From positions 29,330-93,329 of the forward strand of contig JAFGNA010000011.1 in the NCBI GenBank assembly GCA_016927245.1: a stretch of 64,000 nt of DNA. Reading direction: 5' to 3'. Shown here piece after piece: positions 10,524-35,863 of this stretch. Position 1 is the stretch's first letter, and each line of letters begins with the position of its first letter. The DNA comes from Candidatus Woesearchaeota archaeon (GTDB lineage Archaea > Nanobdellota > Nanobdellia > Woesearchaeales > WJKR01). The notes beneath the pieces were generated by a model. That model was given only the letters and a program-made list of their open reading frames with translations, ran no database searches and was not told where the DNA came from. The position numbers and the translations under genes were made by a program.

Positions 10524-10529
10524 GCGTGA

Positions 10530-11075: not shown

Positions 11076-11102
11076 GTTCCTCTTCCTTCGCTTGTTTATC
11101 CT

Positions 11103-11504: not shown

Positions 11505-11507
11505 CTG

Positions 11508-13340: not shown

Positions 13341-13347
13341 GTTGTCG

Positions 13348-14715: not shown

Positions 14716-14920
14716 GCTGTTGCTGTACCTCCTTCTGTTGTTGTGTGCGCAGGGTGTGTATCCTTGCGATGATCTTCTTGAACTGCTTGATCTGGCCGGG
14801 GCTCTTCGGCGCGGTACCCGTGGCCACTTGTGATTGGAGTTTGATGAGCTCGGCGCGGACCTCTTTCTCCTTCTTGTCGAGGTCTTCAGGCCTCATCGCG
14901 GAGAGCTCTGCGTACTTCAT
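14702..14920 (-). CDS. rpl29: Ribosomal protein uL29
   Basis: 72 aa helical protein, ELxKLxxxxATG-like. Operon position. Confidence 0.85.
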   Translation of the reverse strand: MKYAELSAMRPEDLDKKEKEVRAELIKLQSQVATGTAPKSPGQIKQFKKIIARIHTLRTQQQKEVQQQHAGN

Positions 14921-15657: not shown

Positions 15658-16394
15658 GGTTGCGCGTTCTCCTTTGCTCCTGGTGTGGGTGCTGCTTGTT
15701 CCTTGTCGTCCTTGCCTGCGGTCTTCTTCGTCGCTTCTGGCTTCGGCTTCGCCGCCTTCTTGGGTTGTTCGGCCTGTTTCGGTGTTGGCTGCTTCCCGGG
15801 CGCGTCTTCCTTGGCGGTCTCAGGCTTCTCCTTGGCCGCTGCTGGCGTGGTCGTTGCGCTCCTGCTCGTCCCTGCTTCTTCTTCGGGTCGTTCTGGCGCT
15901 TCCTTCTTCGTGGCGGGTGGTTGCGCGGTCTTCGTGGCTTTCTTTGCTTTCCGCTTCGCGCCCGGCGCCTCTACCACGACAATCTCGACGTGCGTCCGCT
16001 TGGTCTGCCGTCGTCGCTGCCTGCCGAAGTGGAACGGCCTGCTTGCGAGGTGCGCTGCGAGGTGCTTGATGAGGAGGTCTGTTGCCAGTCCTTGCTGGCT
16101 CGCGTTGGCTTCTGCCATGTTGATGAGGTCTATGAACGCCTTGCTCGCTTTCTCCGGGTACCTGCCCGCGGCGATGCCTCGCTTGTGGCCGACGCCGTTG
16201 GTGAACCGTTTGAACGGGAGGGCTTCTTGCCGTTTGATGACTCGTTCGAGGTATGCTTTTGCCGCGTCGGTCCGCTTGCCTCGGAGGTGGTTGCAGAGTT
16301 CTATGGCTGCTTTGGTGCTGATGGGCGCGTCCTTGAGGACCGCTCTCGCAGCGTCTTGTCCCGATCCTTGGTATGCGTAGGTGTAATCAGCCAT
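15654..16394 (-). CDS. rpl22: Ribosomal protein uL22 with about 90-aa Lys/Ala/Pro/Glu-rich C-terminal extension
   Basis: L22 core about 155 aa. Tail is PAAAKEKPETAKEDAPGKQPTPKQAEQPKKAAKPKPE.... Confidence 0.9.
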   Translation of the reverse strand: MADYTYAYQGSGQDAARAVLKDAPISTKAAIELCNHLRGKRTDAAKAYLERVIKRQEALPFKRFTNGVGHKRGIAAGRYPEKASKAFIDLINMAEANASQQGLATDLLIKHLAAHLASRPFHFGRQRRRQTKRTHVEIVVVEAPGAKRKAKKATKTAQPPATKKEAPERPEEEAGTSRSATTTPAAAKEKPETAKEDAPGKQPTPKQAEQPKKAAKPKPEATKKTAGKDDKEQAAPTPGAKENAQP

Positions 16395-16401
16395 TTTCTT
16401 C

Positions 16402-16788
16402 TTATCTCACTGACGCGGCGGCGCTGCTCTTCGTGGCGCCTACGCCTGGCCCTCCGTGCTTGACGATCTTCCTGGTGAGGGCGAGTTGTCCGAGGCGCAT
16501 GCCGATCATCTCTGGTTGGACGTGCACGTCGTTGTATCCTTTGCCGTTGTGCACCTTGATGACCTTGCCTACCATGTGGGGGAACACGATCATCTCTCGG
16601 TGGTGCGTCTTGACGTTGTCCTTTCGCTTGGTCTTCTCGTATAGTTGCTTGAGCTCTTCGCTCATCCTATTGGCGGTTCGTCGCTCCCTCGTCGGGAGGA
16701 GCTCGACGAAGCCGTCGAAGTCCAGGTCATTGAGCTGCTCGACGGTGTAGCCTCGGTACGTGAATTCCTTTCTTGCCATGATCATCAC
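16402..16788 (-). CDS. rps19: Ribosomal protein uS19
   Basis: KEFTYRGYTVEQL..., IVFPHMVGKVIKVHNGKGY. Confidence 0.9.
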   Translation of the reverse strand: MMIMARKEFTYRGYTVEQLNDLDFDGFVELLPTRERRTANRMSEELKQLYEKTKRKDNVKTHHREMIVFPHMVGKVIKVHNGKGYNDVHVQPEMIGMRLGQLALTRKIVKHGGPGVGATKSSAAASVR

Positions 16789-16789
16789 T

Positions 16790-17491
16790 TCATCGTTTCC
16801 TGCCGGTCCTCCTCGCGGCGATGGCGCCGACCTTCCTGCCGGGCGGCGCGTTCCTGCTCGTCGGCTTGGCTTTCGACTTCCTGAGCGATCGTTTGTTGCC
16901 GAATGGGTGGGCGACGGCGTTCATCGCGCTGCCTGATACTGAGGGGTAGTACTTGTTCCTCGCCTTCATGGCGTGGTGCCGCTTGCCCGCTTTGAGGAAT
17001 GGTTTCTCCGTCCTGCCGCCGCCGGCGACGATGCCGATGATGGCTCTGCAGTTGGGGTTGAAGGTCTTGCTCTTCTTGCTGGGGAGCTTGACCGTGACTC
17101 CTGTGTCTGACCGGGCGACGAGCTTTGCCGCGCCGCCGCTGCTCCTGACGAATCGTCCGCCGTCTCCTGGTTTGAGCTCGATGTTGAAGACGGGGGTGCC
17201 TTCAGGGATTGCTTTGAGGGGGAGGACGTTGCCGTGGCTGATGGGCGCCTCTGCGCCCATGGGGTAGGTCTTGCCGACGTAGATGCCTTCCGCTGCGATG
17301 ATGAGCCCGTGGGTGTTGTCGTCGTACTTGACCCGTGCGAGGGGGGCGCTGTGGCCTGTGCTGTGGAGGAGGTCTATCACCTCGTATGATTGCTTTGGCT
17401 GCACCGTTGCTTCGCCTGCGGATGCGAAGCTCTTGGCGCGGAACCTGCCGCTTCCTTTTCCTCTTCGTTGCTGGATGAGGTTCTTGCCCAT
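16790..17491 (-). CDS. rpl2: Ribosomal protein uL2
   Basis: GGGRTEKPFLKAGKRHH..., SGSAMNAVAHPFG motif. Confidence 0.9.
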   Translation of the reverse strand: MGKNLIQQRRGKGSGRFRAKSFASAGEATVQPKQSYEVIDLLHSTGHSAPLARVKYDDNTHGLIIAAEGIYVGKTYPMGAEAPISHGNVLPLKAIPEGTPVFNIELKPGDGGRFVRSSGGAAKLVARSDTGVTVKLPSKKSKTFNPNCRAIIGIVAGGGRTEKPFLKAGKRHHAMKARNKYYPSVSGSAMNAVAHPFGNKRSLRKSKAKPTSRNAPPGRKVGAIAARRTGRKR

Positions 17492-17505
17492 GTTCTTTTT
17501 TCTCC

Positions 17506-17757
17506 TTACATGAGGCCGAGCTTGGTGGCCACGTCTATCGCGGGGGTTTCTTTGTTGAACGTGATGTACGCTCGTTTCTTGTTGTCGTGCGTGTTGAGGG
17601 TCCTGACGTCGTCGACCTTGACGTTGAACGCTTCTTCGATGGCTTGTTTTATCTGTGGCTTGGTCGCTTGTTGGTCGACGATGAAGATGAGCTGGTTCTG
17701 GCTTTCCATGAGCCTGATGCTCTTCTCCGTTGAGAGAGGGTACTTGATGATGTTCAT
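17506..17757 (-). CDS. rpl23: Ribosomal protein uL23
   Basis: IIKYPLSTEKSIRLME start. Confidence 0.9.
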   Translation of the reverse strand: MNIIKYPLSTEKSIRLMESQNQLIFIVDQQATKPQIKQAIEEAFNVKVDDVRTLNTHDNKKRAYITFNKETPAIDVATKLGLM

Positions 17758-18692
17758 GCGCTCACCTCAGGCTTCGCTGCGGCTTTGGGCGCGTCCGCAT
17801 GCTTGGCTTGCTTTGCTTGCTTGGGTGCGGGTTTCTTCGCCGGCGCTTCTTCCTCTGACGGCTTCTTTGCCTGCTTGGCTCGTTGCTCGGTGAACAGCTT
17901 GTCCTTTCCTAGTCTGTCGATCGCTGCTTGGGTGTACAGGGTCATCCTGCCGGGCGCGGCTCCTGGTGCGAGGATCTCGGCGTTGAGCTCGTCCACTTTG
18001 GTCGCTTCGACGCCGGGGATGTTGTCTGCCGCGTTGAGGAGCGGGCAGTCATCACTGGTGACGATGAGGATGCTCGTCGCTCGCTTGTACTTGCGGCCGC
18101 GCATGGTGCCTCTGCCTGCTCGTACCTTGCGGTTCTCCGCTCGTGCGAGGTCGTCAGCTAGTCCTATGTCGCGCAGCGCTTGTTCGAGGTCTTTGGTCTT
18201 CTTGAGTTGTTCGAAGTCGTCGGTGATGATGAAGGGGTACGTCTCAGGCGTTTTGTGTCCTCGTGCGCTGACGAGGTCCTTGTCCATGGTGGCCGCCATG
18301 GCTGACCGTATGGCTTTCCGTCGTTCCTTGTCGTTGATCTTGATGGCGGTCTGCTTGTCCGCTTTGGGGGGGTGCGCTCGTCGGCCGCCGACGGTTTGCG
18401 GGGCGAACGCGCCGGTCCAGTTGAACCTGGTGCCTCGGTAGCTCATGGCTTTCCTTGGGGTTCTTGATTGGCCGATGCCGTACGTTCCTCGGTAGTCGTG
18501 CCGTCGTTTGCTGATGCGGACGCTGGCGCGCTTGCCCGCTCCGGGGTCTGCGCCGTGGCGTTCCTTCCTGGCTGCTTGTAGGGCGAGGACTGCTCGTTTG
18601 ATGAGGTCTGGCCGGACCGCTTCTTGGAATTGCGCTGGCAGGGTCGTCTTGCCTTTGTTCGTGTTGTCCGGTGCGATGATGGCGAGTTGCAT
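17754..18692 (-). CDS. rpl4: Ribosomal protein uL4 with Lys/Ala/Pro-rich C-terminal extension
   Basis: L4 core plus about 60 aa AKKPSEEEAPAKKPAPKQAKQAK tail. Confidence 0.9.
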   Translation of the reverse strand: MQLAIIAPDNTNKGKTTLPAQFQEAVRPDLIKRAVLALQAARKERHGADPGAGKRASVRISKRRHDYRGTYGIGQSRTPRKAMSYRGTRFNWTGAFAPQTVGGRRAHPPKADKQTAIKINDKERRKAIRSAMAATMDKDLVSARGHKTPETYPFIITDDFEQLKKTKDLEQALRDIGLADDLARAENRKVRAGRGTMRGRKYKRATSILIVTSDDCPLLNAADNIPGVEATKVDELNAEILAPGAAPGRMTLYTQAAIDRLGKDKLFTEQRAKQAKKPSEEEAPAKKPAPKQAKQAKHADAPKAAAKPEVSA

Positions 18693-18695
18693 GGC

Positions 18696-19673
18696 TTATC
18701 TTCCTTGCTTGCTGTCCTTGTTGATGGCTTTCACGGTCGGTGCGGGTTGCTTCTTCTTCTGCCTGATGGCTTTTGCCATGATGACTAGTCGTTTCTTCGG
18801 TCCTGGCACCGTGCCTTTGATGAGGAGGTAGGTGTTCTTGACGTTGCCGTAGTGGGTGATGCCGCCTGCTTGGTTGACTTCTTCCGGGGCGTCGCTTATC
18901 TTGAGGATGGCGTTGTTGTATTGTGTTCGTTGGTGGTAGCCCATCTGTCCCGCGTGGGCGATGCGGTACATGAAATGCGCTTGGCCTGACCAGCCGCCGA
19001 GCGAGCCGGGGGTGCGTCGTCCTTTCTCGCTCTTGTGTGGTTTGAGGCCTATGCCGAACCGCTTGACGGCTCCTTGGAATCCTTTGCCGGTGGTGATGGC
19101 GTGGAGGTCTATGAGGTCTCCTTCTCGGAGGAGGTCTTGCGCGGTTATCTCTTTGTTGGCGTGCTCTTTGACGTAGGCGAGTTTTTCCTCGTTGGTCCCT
19201 CCTAGTTTGATCTCGAAGAGGTCTGGCTTCTTCTTGAAGCCTATCTTCTTGGGCTGGGTGTACGCGATGATGGTGATGTCTTTCGCTTCTTCGGGGTTGA
19301 TGGCGTTGATGTCGTGCTTGGCGTTCTTGGGGATGGTGAGCTTGCGTGCGAGGTCTTTGTCCGTGTTGATGATGACTTCCTTGCTGACCGCGACGCCGTA
19401 GCCGTGGGGCTTGTAGGCGCGTACGCTGTATATCCTCATGGGCGGGCATTCGATGATGGTGACGGGGATGGTGATTTCTTGGTTCTTGGAGGTCGAGGAT
19501 TTGCGGTTGTCCGTCGCGGTGATGTGGGTCATGCCTGCTTTGTAGCCGGCGAACGCGAGGGGCTTGGCGTCTTTGGCCGTGGCCCATGACCGCACCCTGG
19601 CTACTGGTCTCTTGGCTCGTTTCCGGGGCCAGTATTGCATGCTGCCGAATCGTGGTCGTTTCGCCTTTGGCAT
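18696..19673 (-). CDS. rpl3: Ribosomal protein uL3 (first gene of the operon)
   Basis: FAGYKAGMTHI..., FQGAVKRFG signature. 325 aa. Confidence 0.9.
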   Translation of the reverse strand: MPKAKRPRFGSMQYWPRKRAKRPVARVRSWATAKDAKPLAFAGYKAGMTHITATDNRKSSTSKNQEITIPVTIIECPPMRIYSVRAYKPHGYGVAVSKEVIINTDKDLARKLTIPKNAKHDINAINPEEAKDITIIAYTQPKKIGFKKKPDLFEIKLGGTNEEKLAYVKEHANKEITAQDLLREGDLIDLHAITTGKGFQGAVKRFGIGLKPHKSEKGRRTPGSLGGWSGQAHFMYRIAHAGQMGYHQRTQYNNAILKISDAPEEVNQAGGITHYGNVKNTYLLIKGTVPGPKKRLVIMAKAIRQKKKQPAPTVKAINKDSKQGR

Positions 19674-19971
19674 GGTGTCGTCCTTGTGAGTGCAGCCTTT
19701 TGCTGGAGCATCCCTTGAGAATACGCTCTTCGCGTACTGAAAAGGGGCTTCTTTTCAGGCTGCTGGTGTGTTCGTCACAATCCTTTGAAGGTGACGTGTG
19801 GTGGGGGAGAACGTGAAGGGTTTTTTAAAGCTATCGTGTGGAAAAGAATGTTAAAAAAATTAGTTTCCATATAGTAATTTCTATAAGGAACATAATCTGT
19901 CAGCATACCCAAAAAGAAATAAATTCTATAAAGAAAATAATTCGGGGAAAACAAAGAGAGAACAAAAAGAC
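19674..19971 (-). promoter_or_regulatory. Ribosomal-protein operon promoter and leader. Elements are a leader hairpin (~19737-19763), a TATA-like TTTTTTAAAG (~19821-19830) and a tandem palindromic upstream motif (19863-19896).
   Basis: AT-rich region upstream of rpl3. Motif gtTTCCATATAGtaatTTCTATAAGGAAcataat is shared with the pheS and rpl34e promoters. Inverted repeat tgaaaagGGGCTTCttttca lies in the leader. Confidence 0.5.
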
Positions 19972-20856
19972 TCACCGCACATAACTCTCAACGAGTCCGA
20001 CTAGCTCCTCAGGCGTCTCGACGATGTGACGAAAGTACGCCTGGCCAGAATCAGTCTTCACACCCTCCATAAGGACATCCCTGCCGTCAAAGCCCCACGC
20101 GACCCCGACGGGGACGAGCCGCTCCTTCCTGTAACTCCCCGTCCGCGCGACGTCAGTGCACGCCTGCAAATCAGAGAGCGTGTCGCCGACGAACATCGTC
20201 GCCTCGCCAGCCGCGCCCAAGACGCTCAAGGAGAGCGCGACCGCTATCTTGGACGGCTTCATGATGGCCTGGCTGTTCCCATTCGCGTCGTACCGCTTAA
20301 GCGTCTCCGCCGTGACGAAGGAATCGAAACAACACAAAAGGCCATGATGAGAAAGGTCGCGGTAGATGGACTTCCAGCTATTCGTCGTGTTGATCGCGAG
20401 CCGTACGCGCTGGTTGAATGAGGCATCCTCCTGGAGGTGGCCGAGCTCCCAGACCCGCTTGACCGCCTGCGGCATGCCGTCGAAAGCAGGGGCGACGTAC
20501 GCCTCCTTGAACCGCTCATAATGCTTCCAGACCGGGTGCGCGTGGTCGCTCATGTCGCAAGGGAGCCCGAACGCGTCGTACAAGAACTGCCCGCCGCCGA
20601 CGTTGTAGAGATGATTGTACACTTGGAGGAACCCTTGGAAGTCGACCGGCACGACCCGCTCGCCAGGGCTGTCCTCGAGCGCGACGCGACGCTCCTTCGT
20701 GAGCTCCTCCTTCTCCCCCACCGCGGCGAAACGTGAGAAGTAAGCAAGGGGCGCATCGCCGTTGCTATGCTTGTTCCAGTACAAGAACCACTCGTACTGG
20801 CGCATGGACGTGTCCCCTATCGTGCCGTCATAGTCGAAGATGATCGCGTCGAGCAT
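19972..20856 (-). CDS. HAD-superfamily hydrolase
   Basis: MLDAIIFDYDGTIGDT (motif I DxD), KPSK, GDTLSDLQA (motif IV). Likely start at 20856; the track ORF to 21009 overlaps the primase gene. Confidence 0.7.
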   Translation of the reverse strand: MLDAIIFDYDGTIGDTSMRQYEWFLYWNKHSNGDAPLAYFSRFAAVGEKEELTKERRVALEDSPGERVVPVDFQGFLQVYNHLYNVGGGQFLYDAFGLPCDMSDHAHPVWKHYERFKEAYVAPAFDGMPQAVKRVWELGHLQEDASFNQRVRLAINTTNSWKSIYRDLSHHGLLCCFDSFVTAETLKRYDANGNSQAIMKPSKIAVALSLSVLGAAGEATMFVGDTLSDLQACTDVARTGSYRKERLVPVGVAWGFDGRDVLMEGVKTDSGQAYFRHIVETPEELVGLVESYVR

Positions 20857-20896: not shown

Positions 20897-22423
20897 TCAT
20901 GAGTGGTCCTCTCGCGCTTTCTGCCGCTCACGATACGCCCGCCGCATCGCCTTCTGCTCATCGGTGAGCTTCGCGCGTCCGCCCTTCCCCCTCCCTTGCG
21001 AGTGCTCATATTTCAGCCTCGCGTACTGCAACGGGTTCTTGATGCGGTCGCAGAACTCGTCAGGCCTGCACACCCCGAAGTCCTGGTAGTACCGCTTGCA
21101 GTTGTGCGGCGGCGCGGCGTCCTTCTTAGCCCGCTCGTAACGCAACCGCCCCTTGATGATCACTTGCCGCAAAGGCTCCTCGTTCTGCTGGTTCCACTCG
21201 TCCAATCGGTCTTCTATCTGCTCGAAGCTCCAACCAGCGCCGCGCAGGAAGTTGATGAGGGTGAAGAGCGCTCGCTTGCGCCCGTCTTTCAGACCGGAAA
21301 GCATGGCATGGATGCAAGGAGGAAAGTATTCTTCTGGGATGGCCTCTTCGGGGATGGCGTACTCTTTCTTCTCCGCGACGTCCTCTTCCAGTTTGGGATC
21401 GGAGTCGTACGCGGCGATGAGGAGCTTCGTCGCCTCTTCGGGCACGGCCGCTGAGCGGTCGAGGAAGGGAATGGAGAAGTCCACAGCATCGGGTTCGGCC
21501 TGTGATTTCTTGAACGAGAGCACCCTGTCCTTGTCGACGGGCACGCTCACCAGTTCGGACTTCTCATGGAAGCTGTAGGGCATGCGGTAGAGGTGCCGGT
21601 GCGCCAATAAGATGGTGTCAACCTCGATGATGGTGAGCGGGTCGAACCTGGCAGGGCCCTCCCTCCGCCGCTGCCGCGTGACGTGCTCCTGCATGATCGC
21701 GCCGCACGACGGGCACAGGTTCGTCCCTCCTTCCTGGTCCGTCTTGGCGATGAGGCCGCACGACGGGCAGAGCAAGTGCACCTTGCGCTCCTCCTCCTGC
21801 GCGGTGGTGAGATCCTCGACGCGCTTCCCGAGGCGCTTCGCCAATCGCTCCTTGCTAATCCGGTACTGCCCGTCGAACAAGAGGTGGTCGTCGCGCTCTT
21901 CCAAGTAGTGCTCAACGAGGTAGTCGAGGAGGTAGTACGCGATCCTCCTCGGCGCTTCCGGGAACAAGTCCTTCGTCTTTTGTCCTTGGAACATCTCAGG
22001 GAATGACTGGAACGGGACGGCGACGTGGAATCCTTTGTTCCCGCTGAACTTCGCCGTGACCGCGGCGATGCCGTGCGCCTCCAGCGCCTTGATGAAGAGG
22101 TGGGTGATGAGCTTGGACAACGGCCAGTACGGGCAGTCCACGTCGAGGATGAGATCCCACCCTGTCCGGAGCTCCTCGACGTCCTTCCTACCCATACCGG
22201 TCTGGATGAGCAAGGGGTTGCTCCACAACTCCTCAGAGCAGTGAAACGAAGAGGCTTTCTTCTTCGCGAGCTCGAGCACGTCGCCCTCATTGAACAACGC
22301 GTCGGGGCGCTTCCCGAAAAAGGTCTGGAACCGCACCGAGACCTCCTTGTCACGGGCCTGCTCGACGAGGGCTCGCCGCACCTCGGGCAGCTTGTAGAAT
22401 GAGAGCGTCTTGGCGATGAACAT
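20897..22423 (-). CDS. priSL: Fused DNA primase: PriS catalytic domain, then zinc ribbon, then PriL C-terminal Fe-S domain
   Basis: PriS motifs LILDVD (DxD), FSGNKGFHVAVPF (SGxRGxH) and RHLYRMPYSFHEKSELVSVPVD. Zn ribbon CPSCG..x11..CPSCG. C-terminus FPPCIHAML plus three further Cys (NCKRYY..GVCRPDEFCDRIKNPLQY) match the PriL-CTD 4Fe-4S domain. No PriL N-terminal domain. Confidence 0.75.
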   Translation of the reverse strand: MFIAKTLSFYKLPEVRRALVEQARDKEVSVRFQTFFGKRPDALFNEGDVLELAKKKASSFHCSEELWSNPLLIQTGMGRKDVEELRTGWDLILDVDCPYWPLSKLITHLFIKALEAHGIAAVTAKFSGNKGFHVAVPFQSFPEMFQGQKTKDLFPEAPRRIAYYLLDYLVEHYLEERDDHLLFDGQYRISKERLAKRLGKRVEDLTTAQEEERKVHLLCPSCGLIAKTDQEGGTNLCPSCGAIMQEHVTRQRRREGPARFDPLTIIEVDTILLAHRHLYRMPYSFHEKSELVSVPVDKDRVLSFKKSQAEPDAVDFSIPFLDRSAAVPEEATKLLIAAYDSDPKLEEDVAEKKEYAIPEEAIPEEYFPPCIHAMLSGLKDGRKRALFTLINFLRGAGWSFEQIEDRLDEWNQQNEEPLRQVIIKGRLRYERAKKDAAPPHNCKRYYQDFGVCRPDEFCDRIKNPLQYARLKYEHSQGRGKGGRAKLTDEQKAMRRAYRERQKAREDHS

Positions 22424-22947: not shown

Positions 22948-23172
22948 TCACACGAGTCGCTCGCCGGTCTCGTTGTCCATGATGTGGATGACGCCGACGG
23001 GGCACGCCTCCGCCGCGGCCTTGTTCGCGGCCAACTCGTCCTCCTCGATGTCTCGCTTGAGCACGTCCGCCTTGCCATCAGTACCCATCCGCCAGTTCGC
23101 CTCGTTCTCGCTGACGCACGCGGCGGCGCCGATGCACCCGTCGCGGTCGAATGTTATCGTGTACTTCGCCAT
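22948..23172 (-). CDS. fdx: Single-cluster ferredoxin (Pyrococcus Fd-like)
   Basis: DGCIGAAAC...EACPVGVIHI. Compare P. furiosus Fd CIGDAIC...EACPVSAI. 74 aa. Confidence 0.7.
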   Translation of the reverse strand: MAKYTITFDRDGCIGAAACVSENEANWRMGTDGKADVLKRDIEEDELAANKAAAEACPVGVIHIMDNETGERLV

Positions 23173-23227: not shown

Positions 23228-26200
23228 CTAGCGATAGTGGACGCGCTCGGCGAGGGCGCCGGCCGCTGCGCATCGCCATGACTGGTGGTCAACGACGCCT
23301 TCGAGGAGCCGCTCGGTGAGCTCTGGGGTGATGAGGGATGAGAGGTGGTTGCGGATCCTTGCCCGTTGCTTCTCCAGGTAGAGGTCCCAGTCAGGCCTGG
23401 CTTCGTTCACTTGTAGGAGGTAGACCCGTGTCTGCTTATTGTTGCTGCGCTCCAGGGCGTACGGCCTGCCGGTCTGCTCGTCGACGTGCATGTCCTGCGC
23501 GTCCGGCCTGTGTTTGGAGAAGCCGCTGAAGGGGTGGTAACTGATGCCGGGGGGCAGCTTGGTCCGGAAGTGGAGTTCTTCGCCGTCTTGGAGGAGTGTG
23601 TAGCGGTCCGAGGCTTTGCTGTAGAGCAACAGTTCTTCTGGTGGCAGGCGTCTCTCCGCGACGTTGTTGTAGCCGTCGATGATGGCTTCTAATGCTTGCT
23701 CGAACCGTCCTGCGATGATGCCTTGATAGAATCCTTGGAATTGTCGCATCTCGTTCATGTTGAGGTGGTGCGCGGGGTGGTCGACTATCTTTATTCCTTT
23801 GTAGTGGCCGTGGATGGTGGTGTAGAGCTGCTGGTCGCCTATGAGGTGGTTGCCCGCTTCTGAGAGCTTAGTGTCGTGGGTGATGAGCGCCTCTTCGAAG
23901 GTGTGGATGATGGGGTGCGCTCCTTCGTATTTCTCCAGGAATGATGAGGGGTCTCCTTGGAGGTAGAAGTAAGGGCCTTCTTGGTGTATCATTCTCAAGC
24001 CATGTTCTTCTGCTACTCGCTTCGCGCTGCGCACCATTCGTTCCAGTCGCGTCTTCGCTTCCTCGTATGTTGTTTGGAATTGTTGTTCGAACTTGTACTT
24101 GGCTTTTGCGAGCTTGCTCTCGTTGTTGAGGAGGTATCGGAGGTCTTCTGCGTCTATTTCTTCGTGGGCACGCAGGGCGAACGGGGCTGCTGCCACTGCC
24201 CGCTTGAGCGCTTCTTCGCTGATCGAGCCGTGGAAGAGGTCGTTGCTCGTCGTCTTGTTGTGGTTCTTGAGGAGTCTTTGGTAGTACCTAATGGTTTCTT
24301 GGTATCGGGGGCTTTCTTTGGACACTTTTTGTCGTTTCCGTTCCAGTCCTCGTCGTAGCTTGTCGACCCGTTCGTAGTCTGCTATGAGCCATTCCGCGAG
24401 GGCGTTGCCGTACCTGCTGAGCAGGACGCGGTCTTCCTTGCTCCTGGGGCGCTCGTTGAAGATGACGGCCGCTTCCGGGTTGGTCTTGACGAGGAGGTCT
24501 TTGAGGGCGTGGCCGTAGCGGAGCATGAGGAGGTGCACTTGCACGTAGAGCCCTGGCTCAGCCCTCGTGTTCCCGAGCCTTTCGAGCGTCTTCCTGAATC
24601 CTTGCTTGTTCTCCGCGTATTCCGCTCTCATTTGTTGGCTGCTGCGGAAGAGCTTGTCGTACTCCGCTCCTGTCGTCTTGAGGAATGCTCGTTCGTTCGT
24701 CTTCTGCACTGCTCTTGAGGAGTAGGCGAGGTGCTCTATCGGCAGGTTGAGCCTGTCCGCGAAGTTGGTGACGCGGTCGAGGAAATTGGTGAATGTCGGC
24801 GAGGCCCGCATCTTCGCGAGGATGGCGACGTCCTTGCCCGCGTACGACGCTATCTTCCTCGCCGCTTCCTCGCTCTCTCGTTGGATGTCATTGAGGGTCT
24901 TCCCTTGCATGAGGAGTACTTCTTGTATGTGCTCGTTGTCCTTGATGCGGTGGTATTGCCTCGCCTTCTCTTCCAATAGTTCCATCTCGTCATACGTCAG
25001 TTCCTTGTCGAACGCTTTTTCTCCGAGCATGACCTTGGCGACGAGCGATAATTTCTTGTTCGGCAGCCAGTCGTATTGTATCTGCGCGAACCGCAGGAAG
25101 TCTATGAGCAGCCTGCTCTTGACGCCTATGCGTTCGAAGAACCTCGTCGTGGCCTCGTGGACTGGTTGGTGCTGGTCTTCCTCGTCGGGGGTGAATGATT
25201 CTTCCAGGCTCTTGAGCTCTTCCGCGTCTCGTAGGTTGATGTAGTCGAACTTGCCGTTGTGCGCGGTCATGAGCAACGGGTCCTCTCGCCTGATGCTCTC
25301 CTTCACCCCTAGCAACAGCTTGGCGATGTCTCCTTGGTAGTCGATGACGTCGTGGTCCGCGAAGGTTGGTTGGCCGGTGCCGCTCGCGGTGTGCATCTCT
25401 TGCTTGTACACTTCTCCTTCTCGTTCGTAGTGGATGACGACCCAGCTGGTCTCGGGCTTGTCCGTCTTCCAGCCGGGTATCTCGATGTCGAGGTGCGCCC
25501 ATGTGTGGTCGATGAGTTCTGTGTGGCTGGGAGTCCTTGCGGGCCAGAGGAGGCTTGTGTCTTGGAGGAGTAGTTCCAGCTCTCCTTCCCTCATGACAGG
25601 GGTCATGCCTCTTGCTTGCTCGAGCGTGGTGTAAAGCTCTTGGAGCTCGTCCCGTTCCTTGATGAGGTGTTCTGGGAGGTGCTTGAGGTAGGCGTTCTGC
25701 TCTGCTAGTTTGCTGGTTGGTTGCTTGTCCATCGCCGCCTTGTCGAGCTCGTTGCTCATCCTCGTCACGTACGCCTTGTTCTTCCCTTTTGCGTGCGCCC
25801 GTAGCTTCTCCTTGAGCGCTCTTCGCCTCTCGTTGTAGAGCTTCGCCATGGCGATGCTTGTCTTGAGGCCTGTTCGTAGCGCGAGTACCGTGCCGGGGTT
25901 GCCGTAGTGCTCCCTGGCGGTCCGCGTGTAGTTCTTGGTGTCGAAGTTCGTTCCTTGCCGTTCCCGCAGCAGTGGTGCGATGCTCGGCGGCCCGGCGAGT
26001 TGTATGACGTTGAATGAGTGGTTCTCGTGCTTGTTCTTCTTGCGGTAGGTGATGCTGATGCCAGGGATGGTTTGGACGTCTGCGAGGACGTCTTCTAGCG
26101 CTTTGTGGGTTGAGAAGTGCCTGCTGGTGAAGACGTGTTCTCGTAGCGGTACGAGCAGCGTTCCTGTGTTCTTGAGGTAGAGTTCCGCTACGTCGTGCGT

Positions 26201-26293
26201 CGGTCTTGCTTTGATGTCGGTGAGTATCCTCTCGACGACGTCACTCCTGCTCATGGTTGGTGGTGAAGCTGGTCGAGCATATAAGCGTTTCAC
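23228..26293 (-). CDS. Family-B DNA polymerase-like protein. 3'-5' exonuclease motifs are present; polymerase catalytic motifs are not recognisable.
   Basis: Exo I AHLDIEIPGW (DIE). Exo II MTAHNGKFDYINL..RDAEEL (hNGxxFDxxYL). Possible Exo III LTYDEMELL. The C-terminal 500 aa has only degenerate counterparts of motif A (EPGLYVQV), motif B (LLSRYGNAL) and motif C (YLQGDPSS), with no DxD or DTD. Size and domain order match a PolB. Confidence 0.55.
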   Translation of the reverse strand: MKRLYARPASPPTMSRSDVVERILTDIKARPTHDVAELYLKNTGTLLVPLREHVFTSRHFSTHKALEDVLADVQTIPGISITYRKKNKHENHSFNVIQLAGPPSIAPLLRERQGTNFDTKNYTRTAREHYGNPGTVLALRTGLKTSIAMAKLYNERRRALKEKLRAHAKGKNKAYVTRMSNELDKAAMDKQPTSKLAEQNAYLKHLPEHLIKERDELQELYTTLEQARGMTPVMREGELELLLQDTSLLWPARTPSHTELIDHTWAHLDIEIPGWKTDKPETSWVVIHYEREGEVYKQEMHTASGTGQPTFADHDVIDYQGDIAKLLLGVKESIRREDPLLMTAHNGKFDYINLRDAEELKSLEESFTPDEEDQHQPVHEATTRFFERIGVKSRLLIDFLRFAQIQYDWLPNKKLSLVAKVMLGEKAFDKELTYDEMELLEEKARQYHRIKDNEHIQEVLLMQGKTLNDIQRESEEAARKIASYAGKDVAILAKMRASPTFTNFLDRVTNFADRLNLPIEHLAYSSRAVQKTNERAFLKTTGAEYDKLFRSSQQMRAEYAENKQGFRKTLERLGNTRAEPGLYVQVHLLMLRYGHALKDLLVKTNPEAAVIFNERPRSKEDRVLLSRYGNALAEWLIADYERVDKLRRGLERKRQKVSKESPRYQETIRYYQRLLKNHNKTTSNDLFHGSISEEALKRAVAAAPFALRAHEEIDAEDLRYLLNNESKLAKAKYKFEQQFQTTYEEAKTRLERMVRSAKRVAEEHGLRMIHQEGPYFYLQGDPSSFLEKYEGAHPIIHTFEEALITHDTKLSEAGNHLIGDQQLYTTIHGHYKGIKIVDHPAHHLNMNEMRQFQGFYQGIIAGRFEQALEAIIDGYNNVAERRLPPEELLLYSKASDRYTLLQDGEELHFRTKLPPGISYHPFSGFSKHRPDAQDMHVDEQTGRPYALERSNNKQTRVYLLQVNEARPDWDLYLEKQRARIRNHLSSLITPELTERLLEGVVDHQSWRCAAAGALAERVHYR

Positions 26294-26394: not shown

Positions 26395-26640
26395 ATGGAG
26401 GTCGCGTACATCCTCGTCCAAGCCCGTCACGGCAAGCTCAAAATAGCGTCTGCGGCGCTGCGCAAGTATGAGGAGATTGAGGAGCTTCACGAGATCTACG
26501 GCAGGTATGACATCATCCTCAAGGTGGTGTGCGCGGACCGGTCAGAGATGAAATCGTTCATGCAGAACAAGCTGCACATCACCGAAGGCATACGCGCGAC
26601 GGAGACATTGGTGGTGAATGACCTGCAGAGCGGGGAGTGA
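26395..26640 (+). CDS. Stand-alone Lrp/AsnC C-terminal ligand-binding (RAM) domain protein
   Basis: AYILVQARHG...YGRYDIILKVVCADRSEM...GIRATETLVV matches the AsnC_trans_reg domain. 81 aa. Confidence 0.7.
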   Translation: MEVAYILVQARHGKLKIASAALRKYEEIEELHEIYGRYDIILKVVCADRSEMKSFMQNKLHITEGIRATETLVVNDLQSGE

Positions 26641-27094: not shown

Positions 27095-29305
27095 CTATTT
27101 AAACCTTTCTAGTGAATACGCCGCTTCCAACAAGTCCCGTATGGCTTTCGCCTTCTTCTCCCCTATGAGCTCGACCTCCTGCAATTCTTCCGAAGACGCT
27201 TCCAGCACGCCTCTCACCGACCCGAACCGTTCCAAGAGCGGCTTGGCGAGCCTGGGCCCGATGCCTGGCAACGAAGAAACAACGTATTCTTGCTGTTCGC
27301 GCAGCGACCAAGGCTTGCTCGTGTGCGGGTGGTAGTACGGGTCCTCATCCTTGTGCGCCCGCCGCGCCAAGGCCAGGAGCACGCCTGCCGTGTCCACGGG
27401 AGAAGTGGTGCGCAGCAGGGGGATGTGGTAGGACGTCACGATGGTGGCGAGCATGCCCCTGATGGCGGCGGGGTTGACGCGCCGCTGCGCGTACAGGTCT
27501 TCGAGGCCTTCGATGATGAGCACGGGCTTGTACACGGTGCGCAGCTCTGACAACTGCCCGAGCAAGCGGCCGTCGACGATGCTGTCCACGAAGTCCTTGA
27601 CCGTCTTGTACTCCACGACGACGTCATCGCTGATCCTGTAATCGCCGACGCGGAGCTGCTCGAGGTCTAGCTTGGCGTCCTGGGCCAGCAATGATTTCAT
27701 CACGGGCGAGCCCTTCTCGCGGTAATCGACGGTGATGGTAAGTTCCTGCGCGCCGCCGCCGTAGTCCTGCAAGGTCGGCTGCTCGTTCGCAGTGGGCGTG
27801 AATGATCGCTGCAGCTGCTCGATGGCGCGGTACATGCGCTTCTCCTTGTGGTGAGCGCTCCACCGGTAGCCCTCATCCCGAGTCCCCTTTGTGATGAGCA
27901 AGTACACCTTGCCCGCCTCTTGGCGTCCCGTGCGTCCCCGCCGCTGCACCGTCCTTATAGCGGAGGGGATGGGCTCGTAGAACACGACCGCGTCCACGGC
28001 GGGGATGTCCAGCCCTTCCTCGGCCACGGACGTCGCTATCAGTACTTGGAAGTCGCCGTCACGGAACCGTTGCAGCATTGCTTGCTGCTGCTTCTGCGAC
28101 AGGCCGGTGCCGTTCCGCTTCGCCTGGCCGACGAAGACCTCCGCTGATGCTATCTCTTGGAGCCGTCGCTTGAGCACGGCCGCGGTGTCACGGAACTGGG
28201 TGAACACGATGAGCTTCTTCTTGTCGTCTTCCAAGAGCTCCTGCGTCACCAATGACTGCAGGGCGGTGACCTTTGGGTGCTCCTCTCCTTGTCCGAGCAG
28301 GCGGTCGGCGATGATAGCGGCTGATTTGAAGTCAGGGTCCTTGACCAGGTTCTGGACGGCTTTCACCTTGGTCTTCTCGGCTTGCCGCCGGAGCGATTCC
28401 AAGTATGCTGACAGGGCGGCCACGGTCTGCGTCTCGCACAGTTCCAGGGCGTGCTGCACCTTCAACGCCTCTGCTAGCAGGCTGATGGTCTTCAGGACTT
28501 CGTAGCCTTTCTCTCCTTGCGCGGTCTTGGCGTGCAACGCGGCTTGCGCCCTGAGCAGCCCTGTCTTGTTCAGCTCTGATACTTTCAGGACGCCCATCGC
28601 TTGTGCGTCCGCTAATTTGTTGTCGTGGCAGCGCTGGAGGTGGCCGCGCAGCTTGAGGAGGTCTTCTGAGAGCGGGACGTTCTTGAACGTGATGTCGAGG
28701 TCCTGGACGTACTGCGCCACGTCAGGGTCTTCCTGGGAGCGCACTTCGATGCGGTCGATGAACAGGTTCTGGCACACTGCCTTGATGGTCTCCTCGTCCG
28801 ATCCTGGCGACGCGGTCAGGCCGAGGATGCGCTCGTGCAGGGCGTGCTTGTGGTAGTGCTGGGCGATGAAGACGTACGCGTAGTCTCCGAGGGCTCGGTG
28901 CGCCTCATCGAAGACGAGCAAGGCCACGTCGTCCAAGTGTAGCCGCCTGCTGATGAGGTCGTTCTCCATGCCTTGCGGCGTGCTGAAGACGAACGTCGCC
29001 TCCTTCCACAGCTTCGCCCTTTTCTCAGGGGGGACGTGACCGGTGAACAGTGCGAACGAGTCATCGGGGAAGTCGAACAATGACCTGAACGTGTCGAGGT
29101 GTTGCTGCGCCAACGGCTTGGTCGGCGCGAGGAACACTATCTTGCCGTGGGCGTGCTCGTCCAGGCGGTGCGCCGCCAGCAAAGCCGCGATGGCGGTCTT
29201 GCCCATCCCTGTGGGGAGCACGACGAGCGTGTTCTGCTGCGCCGCCGATGAGAGGATGGTCTCTTGGTAGCGTCGCGGCGAGAATCCTGGCTTGAGAAGT
29301 ACCAT
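27095..29305 (-). CDS. hef: Hef helicase-nuclease (SF2 helicase, XPF-type nuclease, HhH2)
   Basis: N-terminal DEAH-type helicase (PTGMGKT, DEAH). C-terminal nuclease VDYREKG...GDYRISDDVVVEYKTVKDFVDSIVDGRL. HhH2 LPGIGPRLAKPLLERFGSV. The nuclease motif reads EYK instead of the canonical ERK. Confidence 0.85.
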   Translation of the reverse strand: MVLLKPGFSPRRYQETILSSAAQQNTLVVLPTGMGKTAIAALLAAHRLDEHAHGKIVFLAPTKPLAQQHLDTFRSLFDFPDDSFALFTGHVPPEKRAKLWKEATFVFSTPQGMENDLISRRLHLDDVALLVFDEAHRALGDYAYVFIAQHYHKHALHERILGLTASPGSDEETIKAVCQNLFIDRIEVRSQEDPDVAQYVQDLDITFKNVPLSEDLLKLRGHLQRCHDNKLADAQAMGVLKVSELNKTGLLRAQAALHAKTAQGEKGYEVLKTISLLAEALKVQHALELCETQTVAALSAYLESLRRQAEKTKVKAVQNLVKDPDFKSAAIIADRLLGQGEEHPKVTALQSLVTQELLEDDKKKLIVFTQFRDTAAVLKRRLQEIASAEVFVGQAKRNGTGLSQKQQQAMLQRFRDGDFQVLIATSVAEEGLDIPAVDAVVFYEPIPSAIRTVQRRGRTGRQEAGKVYLLITKGTRDEGYRWSAHHKEKRMYRAIEQLQRSFTPTANEQPTLQDYGGGAQELTITVDYREKGSPVMKSLLAQDAKLDLEQLRVGDYRISDDVVVEYKTVKDFVDSIVDGRLLGQLSELRTVYKPVLIIEGLEDLYAQRRVNPAAIRGMLATIVTSYHIPLLRTTSPVDTAGVLLALARRAHKDEDPYYHPHTSKPWSLREQQEYVVSSLPGIGPRLAKPLLERFGSVRGVLEASSEELQEVELIGEKKAKAIRDLLEAAYSLERFK

Positions 29306-33349: not shown

Positions 33350-34153
33350 TCATGCCTTGACCTTGATCTTATCCCATGCTAGGTCGAACAGTTGCTCGAG
33401 CGCTTGCGCGAAGAGCTGCGTGTTCACCCAGACGCCGACGTCGTAGGAGGGGTGTACTTCTGTGTCGTCGGCGAGCATGAACAGGACTTGCGTGGTGTCG
33501 ATGATCATGAACCGCGCGTTGAGTCCTTTGAGGTCTTTGACTTCCGCGAACTCGCTGATGGCCTTCGCTCCTTCCATGTTCTTCTCGGTCAGGGGTGCGG
33601 CGACCCGTACTTGCACGCCTCTTTCCGCGGCTTTCTTGAGCTGGCGGAGCAGGGCGTCTCCTTTGCGGTTGAGGCCTCCTTCGCTCGTGATGAGGGTGAT
33701 GCGTTCCTCTGCTTCTTTTATCATGAGGTTGAGGTGTTCGTAGATGTTGTTCTGGCCTTTCACGCTGCCGGTGAGGTCTTCGGGCTCGACGGTGTCGATG
33801 CCGTTGTTGTGTAGTTGTGTTAGTTCTTTGAGGACGTCGCTGCCGTATAGCTCGTCCATGGTTTTCAGCGTGGCCGCTGTTTCTTCGTGTACGCGTTTCT
33901 TTACTCGTTCCACGACTTCTTCTGGGGGCACGGCTATGTACTTGATGGGCTTGCCGAGCTTCATGATGATGAATCCTTTCTTCTCCAATGATTCTAGGAT
34001 GTCGTAGGATCTTGATCGTGGCACGTTGCTGATGTCTGAGAGTTCGCCTGCTGTCGCGACGCCTCGTGAGAGCAGCGCAGTCCATATCTTCGCTTCGTAG
34101 GTGTTGAGGCCGAAGTCTTTTATTTTTTTGAGGAAGTCTTGTTGTACAATCAT
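33350..34153 (-). CDS. trmB: TrmB-family transcriptional regulator (paralog 1)
   Basis: N-terminal wHTH LNTYEAKIWTALLSRGVATAGELSDISNVPRSRSYDILESLEKKGF plus TrmB C-terminal domain. About 65% identical to the paralog at 60852-61661. Confidence 0.85.
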   Translation of the reverse strand: MIVQQDFLKKIKDFGLNTYEAKIWTALLSRGVATAGELSDISNVPRSRSYDILESLEKKGFIIMKLGKPIKYIAVPPEEVVERVKKRVHEETAATLKTMDELYGSDVLKELTQLHNNGIDTVEPEDLTGSVKGQNNIYEHLNLMIKEAEERITLITSEGGLNRKGDALLRQLKKAAERGVQVRVAAPLTEKNMEGAKAISEFAEVKDLKGLNARFMIIDTTQVLFMLADDTEVHPSYDVGVWVNTQLFAQALEQLFDLAWDKIKVKA

Positions 34154-35850: not shown

Positions 35851-35863
35851 GCACCAAACCCAA

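What the first reader, a model, noticed from the sequence alone, without database searches (positions are those of the whole stretch)
23228..26293. 1021-aa PolB-like protein with intact-looking 3'-5' exonuclease motifs but no recognisable polymerase catalytic motifs
Exo I (LDIEI) and Exo II (HNGKFDYINL) motifs are present in the right order and spacing. The C-terminal half has no DxxSLYPS, KxxxNSxYG or YGDTDS motifs and keeps only degenerate echoes (PGLYVQV, LSRYGNAL, YLQGDPSS). It sits among replication and repair genes: the fused primase, Hef and a ferredoxin. Inactivated archaeal PolB families are known from comparative genomics, but a variant keeping the exonuclease and losing the polymerase would be functionally distinct. 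It could be a proofreading or processing factor rather than a polymerase.
Basis: partly seen in the sequence, partly recalled or inferred. Interest (0 to 1): 0.65.

Follow-up and report, generated by a model that had tools for sequence, protein, structure and literature searches.

The report
PolB relative: exonuclease kept, polymerase lost
A DPANN archaeon that replicates with PolD also carries a full-length relative of family-B DNA polymerases that keeps every proofreading-exonuclease residue but has lost the polymerase catalytic residues, so it probably trims DNA 3' ends rather than synthesising DNA.

Summary

The DEDDy exonuclease residues are kept in at least 95% of about 125 members, and five of the six in at least 97%. 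The motif A aspartate position is acidic in only 2 of 125 (Met in this protein). Motif C DTD is E-G-P here and variable across the family, and no member has KxxxNSxYG. PolD (with an intact DP1 nuclease), Orc1 and MCM are in the same window.

Best reading: a PolB-derived 3'-5' exonuclease working in replication-linked repair, clamp-tethered in about half the members. Activity is inferred, not shown. It is a new variant of a known kind and is currently annotated only as hypothetical.

The parts
23228..26254 (-). Gene for the PolB-derived protein. It is 1008 aa plus stop from the ATG at 26254. The maximal ORF runs to a GTG at 26293 (1021 aa). Residue numbers used in this report set residue 1 at window 26257, which is T13 of the long ORF. 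NCBI numbering is this number minus 1.
   Evidence: P0001 is NCBI JXA12_02750 'hypothetical protein', Candidatus Woesearchaeota
25874..26257 (-). N-terminal domain (residues 1-128), mixed beta/alpha.
   Evidence: AF2 model, pLDDT mostly 88-95, with a dip to 54 around residues 71-80. The segment label rests on the model's secondary structure and on collinearity with PolB; residue-level structural alignments were not available.
25613..25873 (-). Family-specific helical insertion (residues 129-215) between the N-terminal domain and the exonuclease. Function unknown; it is the least conserved segment.
   Evidence: four helices in the AF2 secondary structure; no column is >=80% identical
24758..25522 (-). 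DEDDy 3'-5' exonuclease domain (residues 246-500), the best-conserved segment.
   Evidence: hhalign to E. coli Pol II at 95% and to 7 canonical PolBs at 97.6%, E=3.8e-12; PDB profile hit at E=6e-10; 18 columns >=90% identical versus 0-3 in any other segment
25481..25489 (-). Exo I motif D257-I-E259 (in HLDIEIP).
   Evidence: D in 122/126 and E in 125/125 family members; aligned with the DIE motif of E. coli Pol II; coordinates
25244..25258 (-). Exo II motif N334-G-K-F-D338.
   Evidence: N in 120/126 and D in 127/130; aligns with NxxxFD of canonical PolBs
24830..24844 (-). Exo III motif Y472-A-G-K-D476.
   Evidence: Y in 127/127 and D in 127/127; aligned with the YNLKD motif of Pol II
24500..24556 (-). 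Degenerate motif A region, PGLYVQVHLLMLRYGHALK (residues 568-586). G569 and V574 are retained. The catalytic Asp position is Met578.
   Evidence: hhalign aligns G569..V574 with the strand G457..V463 of M. hollandica PolB, which leads to D466 of DYKSLYP; column 578 is Y68 F23 with D+E in 2/125; strand 569-578 in the AF2 model
24002..24457 (-). Fingers-like all-helical region (residues 601-752). No KxxxNSxYG, and very low conservation.
23942..23995 (-). Degenerate motif C hairpin, RMIHQEGPYFYLQGDPSS (residues 755-772). The DTD turn corresponds to E760-G761-P762 (window 23972-23980).
   Evidence: AF2 strands 755-760 and 763-767; forced hhalign pairs IYGDTDS with IHQEGPY (weak, E=0.036); column 760 is D+E in 52/119 and column 762 in 24/119
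23231..23767 (-). Thumb domain (residues 831-1009), ending in AAGALAERVHYR.
   Evidence: second collinear HMMER match to the archaeal PolB thumb, family profile positions 788-831 against PolB 621-665; hhalign; C-terminal motifs
22948..23172 (-). 74-aa ferredoxin-like ORF, 55 nt downstream on the same strand; possibly co-transcribed.
   Evidence: ORF; 66% identical to the Fer4-annotated gene of the syntenic contig L001
27095..29305 (-). Hef helicase-nuclease (DEAD/Helicase_C + ERCC4 + HhH). It is upstream on the same strand, separated from the gene by a divergent small AsnC-type gene (26395-26640, +).
   Evidence: the same neighbourhood occurs in L001 and L007

Best explanation
The gene encodes a full-length but highly diverged family-B DNA polymerase homologue. 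The architecture is N-terminal domain, DEDDy exonuclease, palm, fingers and thumb. The polymerase active site has been lost and the 3'-5' exonuclease active site is under strong purifying selection. It belongs to a family of about 900-1100-aa proteins found in DPANN archaea (Woesearchaeota/Nanobdellota).

Most likely mechanism, all inferred: the dead palm, fingers and thumb still grip a primer-template or nicked duplex. The 3' end is delivered to the exonuclease site, as in the editing mode of PolB. The enzyme removes mismatched, damaged or blocked 3' termini.

In about half of the family members a C-terminal Q-x-x-L-(x)-F peptide would tether the protein to PCNA. In this genome PolD, whose DP1 nuclease is intact, is the polymerase encoded beside Orc1 and MCM and is presumably the replicase. 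The protein is therefore an accessory 3'-end processing or extrinsic-proofreading nuclease in replication-coupled repair, not a DNA synthesiser.

Shown: homology, fold, and the pattern of residue conservation and loss.
Inferred: exonuclease activity, lack of polymerase activity, clamp binding and the repair role.
For: Fold:
- AF2 model with pLDDT 91.6 and pTM 0.90.
- All top 50 Foldseek hits are B-family polymerases, E down to 1.4e-13, with about 1000-1200 alignment columns.

Sequence homology:
- The family profile hits archaeal PolBs in the PDB at E=6e-10, with collinear exonuclease and thumb segments.
- hhalign to 7 canonical PolBs gives 97.6%, E=3.8e-12, and the alignment stops exactly at motif A.

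Residue conservation over about 125 members:
- Exo I: D 122/126, E 125/125.
- Exo II: N 120/126, D 127/130.
- Exo III: Y 127/127, D 127/127.
- Motif A Asp position: acidic in 2/125.
- Motif C positions: acidic in 52/119 and 24/119.

Other points:
- No member has DxxSLYP or KxxxNSxYG.
- The exonuclease domain is the best-conserved segment and the fingers are among the least conserved.
- No charged column in the C-terminal half exceeds 91%.
- PolD DP1 (all five phosphoesterase motifs) and DP2, Orc1 and MCM are in the window.
- Repair helicases lie next to the gene: Hef in the window, L001 and L007, and UvrB 55 nt upstream on the same strand in L002/L005.
- About half of 51 members end in a Q-x-x-L-(x)-F motif (my visual count).
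- Precedent: PolX proteins with a dead polymerase site that retain the PHP 3'-5' exonuclease (PMC12926913).
Against: - No biochemistry exists for any member.
- PolB2/Dpo2 and piPolB show that PolBs with non-canonical motif C can still polymerise (PMC7544198, PMC8764526).
- The mapping of motif C rests on a weak forced hhalign (E=0.036) plus the secondary structure of the model. I could not superpose coordinates.
- The palm, thumb and KxY-like YY motif remain conserved, so the C-terminal half is under selection for something.
- This protein's own C-terminus (AAGALAERVHYR) is not a recognisable PIP box.
- Gene neighbourhood is not conserved across the family (FtsY, eIF6, deoxyhypusine synthase and others), so the repair link is weak.
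- I could not determine whether these genomes also encode an active PolB.
Confidence: 0.6

Rival explanations
1. It is still an active DNA polymerase that uses a rearranged active site, for example a specialised repair or translesion enzyme, as happened with archaeal PolB2/Dpo2.
For: - PolB2 was predicted to be inactivated but is an active TLS extender (PMC7544198 section read; PMC8764526 abstract).
- The full polymerase architecture is retained with high model confidence.
- Y765 and the YY of the KxY-like motif are conserved.
- E760 sits at the first-Asp position of motif C in this protein, and D769 is nearby in its subclade.
Against: - The motif A aspartate is universal in the 7 canonical PolBs aligned. 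Here it is replaced by Tyr, Phe or Met in about 98% of members, with no acidic residue at the flanking positions 577 or 579.
- Motif B Lys/Asn are absent, and the fingers have almost no conserved column.
- No acidic column in residues 500-1009 exceeds 91%, and none lies in the two palm strands.
- PolB2 lost its exonuclease residues, which is the opposite pattern.
Confidence: 0.12
2. It is mainly a non-catalytic scaffold, like the inactive C-terminal PolB module of eukaryotic Pol epsilon. It would bridge PolD, primase, the CMG-like helicase or PCNA. The exonuclease-site residues would be retained for binding a DNA end rather than for hydrolysis.
For: - It lies in a replication gene neighbourhood with Orc1, PolD, MCM and primase.
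- Clamp-binding-like C-termini occur in about half the family.
- Pol epsilon-C is an essential inactive PolB (PMC7544198).
Against: - All five DEDDy catalytic residues plus the Exo II Asn are kept in at least 95% of members, at about 20% overall identity. That is the signature of catalysis rather than mere binding.
- In known scaffold PolBs (Pol epsilon-C, PolB2) these residues decayed (PMC4104785, PMC7544198).
- No Zn-finger C-terminal domain is present.
Confidence: 0.1
3. The DEDDy domain acts on RNA rather than DNA, for example by trimming RNA primers or RNA 3' ends. The protein would then be an RNA or RNA-DNA hybrid processing factor.
For: - A fused primase that makes unproofread primers is 0.8 kb downstream.
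Against: - The domain is specifically of the PolB type, with a Y-x3-D Exo III motif and PolB-specific flanking motifs, and it aligns best to PolB exonucleases.
- The duplex-gripping thumb and palm are retained.
- Nothing in the data points to RNA.
Confidence: 0.08
4. The PolB resemblance is spurious, or the gene is a decaying pseudogene of a PolB.
For: A single-sequence search finds no Pfam, NCBIfam or PDB match.
Against: - An uninterrupted 1008-aa ORF.
- 157 homologous clusters.
- pLDDT 91.6.
- Profile E-values of 1e-9 to 1e-12.
- Strong site-specific conservation.
Confidence: 0.02

Closest known systems
Archaeal family-B DNA polymerases of the B1/B3-like clade (Thermococcus/Pyrococcus PolB, Desulfurococcus Tok Pol, P. 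calidifontis PolB)
   Same: - Best sequence-profile hits (E=6e-10 to 1e-7).
- Same Exo I/II/III motifs and the G-x4-V strand before motif A.
- Similar thumb start and C-terminal region.
   Different: - The motif A Asp, motif B Lys/Asn and motif C DTD are all missing.
- An extra helical insertion of about 90 aa follows the N-terminal domain.
- The fingers region is longer.
- It falls below Pfam thresholds for both DNA_pol_B and DNA_pol_B_exo1.
Archaeal PolB2 / Dpo2 ('inactivated' PolB family, Rogozin 2008; Makarova 2014)
   Same: A diverged archaeal PolB paralogue with a non-canonical polymerase motif C, suspected to act in repair.
   Different: - The pattern of loss is opposite. In PolB2, Exo I is not conserved and Exo III is missing, while polymerase activity persists (PMC7544198; PMC4104785). 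Here the exonuclease is intact and the polymerase carboxylates are gone.
- No arCOG07300-like or RadA-like neighbours were seen among the called neighbours; this was not specifically searched.
C-terminal inactive PolB module of eukaryotic Pol epsilon
   Same: A PolB fold retained without polymerase catalysis, sitting in the replisome.
   Different: In Pol epsilon-C both the exonuclease and the polymerase are inactivated, and it carries a Zn-binding C-terminal domain (PMC7544198, PMC2669801). Here the exonuclease site is strictly conserved and there is no Cys-rich C-terminus.
Prokaryotic PolX proteins with an inactivated polymerase site but an active PHP 3'-5' exonuclease
   Same: Same evolutionary logic: a polymerase whose nuclease function is kept under stronger selection than its synthesis function (PMC12926913).
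   Different: An unrelated polymerase family (X, not B) and an unrelated nuclease fold (PHP, not DEDDy).
Stand-alone PolB-type exonucleases (Pfam DNA_pol_B_exo2 PF10108 / RNase_H_2 PF13482 proteins)
   Same: A PolB-like DEDDy exonuclease that works without an attached active polymerase. Such proteins surfaced as hits to a PolB exonuclease fragment.
   Different: Those proteins, as I recall them, are short and consist of the exonuclease domain only. This family keeps the entire 1000-aa polymerase body, and it does not reach the Pfam score for those models.

Membership tests
Family-B DNA polymerase (structural and evolutionary superfamily) | Full architecture: N-terminal domain, DEDDy exonuclease, palm, fingers and thumb in that order | tested here: met
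   [not shown]
Family-B DNA polymerase (structural and evolutionary superfamily) | Exo I (DxE), Exo II (Nx2-3[FY]D) and Exo III (Yx3D) motifs | tested here: met
   D257/E259, N334/D338 and Y472/D476; conserved in 95-100% of about 125 members; aligned to the corresponding motifs of Pol II and 7 PolBs
Family-B DNA polymerase (as an active enzyme) | Motif A DxxSLYPS with the metal-binding Asp | tested here: not met
   The Asp position is Met578; the column is Y68 F23 with D+E in 2/125; no DxxSLYP in any of 151 representatives
Family-B DNA polymerase (as an active enzyme) | Motif B KxxxNSxYG in the fingers | tested here: not met
   The pattern is absent from all 151 representatives; no K/R or N column is conserved in residues 601-752. 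Residue-level structural mapping was not possible.
Family-B DNA polymerase (as an active enzyme) | Motif C YxDTDS with catalytic Asp at the beta-hairpin turn | tested here: not met
   The hairpin turn is E760-G761-P762; the columns are acidic in 44% and 20% of members. The mapping rests on a weak forced alignment plus the model's secondary structure.
Family-B DNA polymerase (as an active enzyme) | Pfam DNA_pol_B (PF00136) or DNA_pol_B_exo1 (PF03104) at gathering score | tested here: not met
   No hit even at E<=1. Only two very distant family members touch PF03104 (P0134 at 33 bits, P0131 at 20.7 bits, below the cut-off), and none hits DNA_pol_B.
Archaeal PolB2 (Dpo2) group | Exo I not conserved and Exo III missing; single Asp in motif C plus a D(K/R) motif | tested here: not met
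   Exo I-III are all intact here; the defining features are taken from PMC7544198
Pol epsilon C-terminal-type inactive PolB | Both exonuclease and polymerase sites inactivated; C-terminal Zn-binding domain | tested here: not met
   The exonuclease site is intact; the C-terminus has no Cys clusters
PCNA-binding replication/repair factor | C-terminal PIP-type peptide (Q-x-x-[LIM]-x-x-aromatic, or the shorter Q-x-x-L-F) | tested here: inconclusive
   About half of 51 members end in such a motif, by my visual count of the printed C-termini; a strict regex caught 14. This protein and its closest relatives instead end in AAxxLxxRV[HF]. No binding prediction was run.
Active DEDDy 3'-5' exonuclease | Metal-dependent 3'-5' hydrolysis of a DNA 3' end | not testable with these tools
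   Only residue conservation and fold were assessed

The most novel reading that the evidence does not exclude
In a lineage of PolD-dependent DPANN archaea, the ancestral PolB has been converted into a dedicated 3'-5' exonuclease that is often clamp-tethered. It keeps the whole polymerase body as a DNA-handling scaffold and may be the only PolB homologue in these small genomes. This would be a natural separation-of-function allele. It would show that what such archaea need from PolB is end-editing or extrinsic proofreading (for PolD, or for the unproofread primase), not synthesis.
Probability: 0.4. Interest if true: 0.75.

Novelty: new variant of a known kind. Interest (0 to 1): 0.62.

Why it matters
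Inactivated family-B polymerases are known, but in the described cases the pattern differs. Either both sites are lost (Pol epsilon C-terminal module, as described for PolB2) or only the exonuclease is lost (Pol alpha, Pol zeta, PolB2).

A sizeable family (157 clusters at 50% identity) that keeps the exonuclease and discards the polymerase is the missing combination. None of the PolB surveys I read mentions it (PMC7544198, PMC4104785, PMC12926913). One survey collected sequences using polymerase-domain queries, which may have missed such proteins.

The family is annotated as 'hypothetical protein' and matches no Pfam or NCBIfam model. It therefore probably counts as 'no PolB' in gene-content tables of DPANN genomes.

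If the exonuclease is active, three things follow:
- It bears on the unsettled division of labour between PolB and PolD in archaea; T. kodakarensis PolB is dispensable for replication but important for repair (PMC6759347).
- It offers a natural test of what the non-catalytic PolB body contributes to editing.
- It gives a handle on DNA repair in reduced archaeal genomes.

Tried and rejected
- Single-sequence searches (Pfam, NCBIfam, PDB phmmer) and the 3-sequence profile against the PDB found nothing.
- The first AF2 run, with 3 sequences, was unusable (pLDDT 44).
- Word-index homologue searches saw only 3-4 relatives. The third, seeded with a D. Tok PolB fragment to collect canonical PolBs, returned only fragments. 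I therefore took canonical PolBs from annotated plasmid, phage and E. coli records instead.
- A 95-sequence alignment call failed, a Pfam scan of all of A2 exceeded the size limit, and A2 was too diverse for the locus search.
- The afdb50 fold library was unavailable.
- Model coordinates are not exposed to scripts, so I could not superpose the palm on a PolB ternary complex. The motif C mapping rests on hhalign plus secondary structure.
- I tested whether the protein compensates for a dead PolD proofreader and rejected it: DP1 has all five phosphoesterase motifs.
- I tested for a viral or mobile-element origin and found no relatives in IMG/VR; the neighbours are housekeeping genes.
- hhalign against single PolBs did not discriminate between Pol II-like and archaeal clades.
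- The supplement of PMC7544198 held no Woesearchaeota entries in the text available.
Full report
**1. What is at the coordinates**

The finding's coordinates enclose one ORF, on the minus strand, at 23228..26293. It is 1021 aa long counted from a GTG. Homologues and the NCBI model (P0001, JXA12_02750, 'hypothetical protein', Candidatus Woesearchaeota archaeon) start 13 codons further in, at the ATG at 26254, which gives 1008 aa.

Residue numbers below follow the modelled sequence. Residue 1 is at window 26257; add 12 for the long ORF, or subtract 1 for the NCBI protein.

**2. Genomic setting**

The window is a piece of a DPANN chromosome and holds these genes:

| Gene | Window coordinates |
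|---|---|
| Hef helicase-nuclease | 27095-29305(-) |
| small AsnC-type gene | 26395-26640(+) |
| 74-aa ferredoxin-like ORF, 55 nt downstream of the focal gene | 22948-23172(-) |
| fused PriS-PriL primase | 20897-22423(-) |
| Orc1/Cdc6 | 34609-35850(+) |
| PolD DP1 | 35864-37390(+) |
| PolD DP2 | 37390-40932(+) |
| MCM | 45975-48002(+) |

- A ribosomal-protein operon lies further downstream of the primase.
- DP1 retains all five phosphoesterase motifs: DPH, GD, GNHD, H and GHIH. PolD proofreading therefore appears intact.
- PolD is the polymerase encoded beside Orc1 and MCM, and it is presumably the replicase.
- No canonical PolB is encoded in the 64 kb.

**3. Is it a PolB relative?**

As a single sequence it matches nothing: not Pfam or NCBIfam at E<=1, and not the PDB by phmmer. 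A 3-sequence profile also failed against the PDB and gave a useless model (pLDDT 44).

The exhaustive profile search changed the picture. It found 157 cluster representatives at E<=1e-3, of which 90 are at E<=1e-30. Most are 900-1100 aa long.

With a 51-sequence alignment (A2), several independent lines agree:

- **PDB profile search.** The family profile hits archaeal B-family polymerases (D. Tok, 9°N, Tgo, KOD, Pfu) at E=6e-10 to 1e-7. There are two collinear segments, one in the exonuclease domain and one at the start of the thumb.
- **Structure prediction.** AlphaFold gives pLDDT 91.6 and pTM 0.90.
- **Foldseek.** It returns only B-family polymerases in the top 50 (Pol delta, E. coli Pol II, P. 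abyssi, Pol alpha, KOD and others). E-values go down to 1.4e-13, and about 1000-1200 alignment columns span the whole target.
- **hhalign.** Against E. coli Pol II alone it gives 95%. Against seven canonical PolBs collected from annotated records it gives 97.6%, E=3.8e-12.

The PolB relationship is therefore secure and covers the full length.

**4. State of the two active sites**

*Exonuclease.* hhalign pairs D257/E259 with the DIE motif of Pol II. It pairs N334..D338 with NxxxFD, and Y472..D476 with YNLKD. I aligned all representatives to the family HMM and counted each column:

| Site | Residue kept | Count |
|---|---|---|
| Exo I | D | 122/126 |
| Exo I | E | 125/125 |
| Exo II | N | 120/126 |
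| Exo II | D | 127/130 |
| Exo III | Y | 127/127 |
| Exo III | D | 127/127 |

Overall identity to this protein in the 51-sequence alignment falls to 17-25% for most members. The exonuclease domain is the best-conserved segment. It has 18 columns that are >=90% identical, against 0-3 in every other segment.

*Polymerase, motif A.* The hhalign alignment to canonical PolBs runs up to the strand G569-x4-V574. This equals G457..V463 of M. hollandica PolB, which leads into D466 of DYKSLYP. The alignment ends exactly there.
- By register, the motif A aspartate corresponds to Met578.
- That column is Y68/F23, with only 2 acidic residues in 125.
- The flanking columns 577 and 579 have none.

*Polymerase, motif C.* The model has a beta-hairpin at 755-760 and 763-767. 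A forced alignment of the C-terminal halves is weak (E=0.036) but collinear over 335 columns. It pairs I-Y-G-D-T-D-S with I-H-Q-E760-G-P762-Y.
- Columns 760 and 762 are acidic in 44% and 20% of members.
Its Asp (769) is present in 18 of 51 members.

*Other polymerase features.*
- None of 151 representatives contains DxxSLYP or KxxxNSxYG.
- The fingers-like helical region (601-752) has one column at >=80% identity.
- No acidic or basic column in residues 500-1009 exceeds 91%.
- The charged columns that are conserved there lie in the helices before motif A, the fingers-like region and the thumb. None lies in the motif A or motif C strands.
- What is retained in the C-terminal half looks structural: G569, V574, Y763/Y765, the YY of the KxY-like motif, a GxKxxD element and the thumb.

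**5. Family distribution and context**

Named members are Candidatus Woesearchaeota (P0001, P0003, P0004). Genome loci carry labels of Woesearchaeota, Nanobdellota or 'uncultured Methanosarcinales' TPA MAGs. One of the latter is a 774-kb chromosome, which is DPANN-sized, so that label is doubtful. No relative was found in IMG/VR viral contigs.

Neighbourhoods:
- L001 is fully syntenic with the window.
- Hef is also adjacent in L007.
- In L002/L005 the gene follows UvrB by 55 nt on the same strand and is followed by AhpC.
- In L019 it is followed by two peroxiredoxins, cysteine desulfurase, NifU and SOD.
- Elsewhere the neighbours are unrelated housekeeping genes: FtsY, eIF6, deoxyhypusine synthase and a Toprim protein.

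The repair and oxidative-stress association is therefore suggestive only.

By my visual count, about half of the 51 aligned members end in Q-x-x-L-(x)-F peptides, for example QLSLF, QTSLF, QLELF, QISLF and QLVLGF. These resemble clamp-binding motifs. This protein's subclade instead ends in AAxxLxxRV[H/F].

**6. Interpretation**

The simplest reading is a PolB whose polymerase chemistry has been lost, while the DEDDy exonuclease is maintained by selection. The rest of the polymerase body is kept as the DNA-holding scaffold that feeds a 3' end to the exonuclease site. The best structural match being PolB in editing mode is in line with this, though it is weak evidence.

PolD is present with an intact DP1, so the protein is an accessory nuclease. 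Its task would be removing mismatched, damaged or blocked 3' ends during replication-coupled repair, or editing for enzymes that lack proofreading, such as the primase.

None of this has been shown biochemically. The history of PolB2/Dpo2 demands caution: it was predicted dead and later shown to be an active TLS polymerase (PMC7544198; PMC8764526). PolB2, however, retains the motif A Asp region and lost the exonuclease, which is the opposite pattern.

**7. Comparison with known systems and novelty**

- Known inactivated PolBs have both sites degraded or only the exonuclease lost. Examples are PolB2, the Pol epsilon C-terminal module, poxvirus F12 and polinton helicase fusions (PMC4104785, PMC2669801, PMC4304020, PMC5499653).
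- The closest functional analogy is in family X, where some PolX proteins have a dead polymerase site but keep the PHP 3'-5' exonuclease (PMC12926913).
- The large PolB survey collected sequences with polymerase-domain queries. It reports B7 and B9 groups in Woesearchaeota, and this family does not appear in the text I read.
- I therefore rate it a new variant of a known kind: a PolB-superfamily clade with exonuclease retained and polymerase lost, currently unannotated.

**8. Verdict**

- Confidence in the statement about homology and site status is about 0.85.
- Confidence in the full mechanistic reading is about 0.6.
- Interest is 0.62.

Noticed in passing
window 33350-48002: A replication gene island: a TrmB-like regulator (33350-34153, -), Orc1/Cdc6 (34609-35850, +), PolD DP1 (35864-37390, +), PolD DP2 (37390-40932, +) and MCM (45975-48002, +). 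GC skew and AT skew both change sign near 34 kb. The 455-nt gap between TrmB and orc1 is a likely replication origin.
   Followed up: partly
window 20897-22423 (-): A single 508-aa protein carries both PriS (DNA_primase_S) and PriL (DNA_primase_lrg) domains, so it is a fused primase. The syntenic contig L001 has a 547-aa counterpart.
   Followed up: partly
window 40001-44223: A low-GC patch (0.43-0.49 against about 0.58 elsewhere) lies just after DP2 and ends at the only tRNA gene, tRNA-Ala(CGC) at 44150-44223. It contains only short ORFs and has no Rfam hit other than the tRNA. It could be an integrated element or a non-coding region.
   Followed up: no
L002 1793-13470; L019 10001-17754; L006 8713-9309: In several relatives the gene sits among oxidative-stress genes: AhpC/peroxiredoxins, Fe/Mn-SOD, SufBD, NifU/cysteine desulfurase and an FMN reductase. 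In L002/L005 it lies directly downstream of UvrB. In the window a ferredoxin-like ORF follows it.
   Followed up: partly
C-termini of family members (alignment A2): About half of the 51 aligned members end in Q-x-x-L-(x)-F peptides (QLSLF, QLELF, QISLF, QLVLGF and others). These resemble clamp (PCNA) binding motifs. The window protein's subclade has a different conserved ending, AAxxLxxRV[H/F].
   Followed up: partly
proteins P0129-P0149 (weak hits): Proteins of 700-1070 aa match only the exonuclease part of the family profile. They also lack DxxSLYP, KxxxNSxYG and Pfam DNA_pol_B; two touch DNA_pol_B_exo1. The radiation of polymerase-less PolB-like proteins may be wider than this one family.
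   Followed up: partly
L003, L007, L008, L009, L011 (record titles): Several TPA MAGs that carry the gene are titled 'uncultured Methanosarcinales archaeon'. One of them is a complete 774-kb chromosome (OZ246410.1), a genome size typical of DPANN, so the taxonomic label looks unreliable.
   Followed up: no
window 8001-20000 and 50001-58000: AT skew on the plus strand is very strong (-0.38 to -0.51) where genes lie on the minus strand. Coding strands are therefore markedly A-rich relative to T.
   Followed up: no
window 59271-60809 (-); L007 9458-14083: Large proteins with repeated MopE-type putative metal-binding motifs occur here. The window protein also has a polysaccharide-lyase-like domain. 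A 1541-aa relative of the motif lies next to the family member in L007.
   Followed up: no
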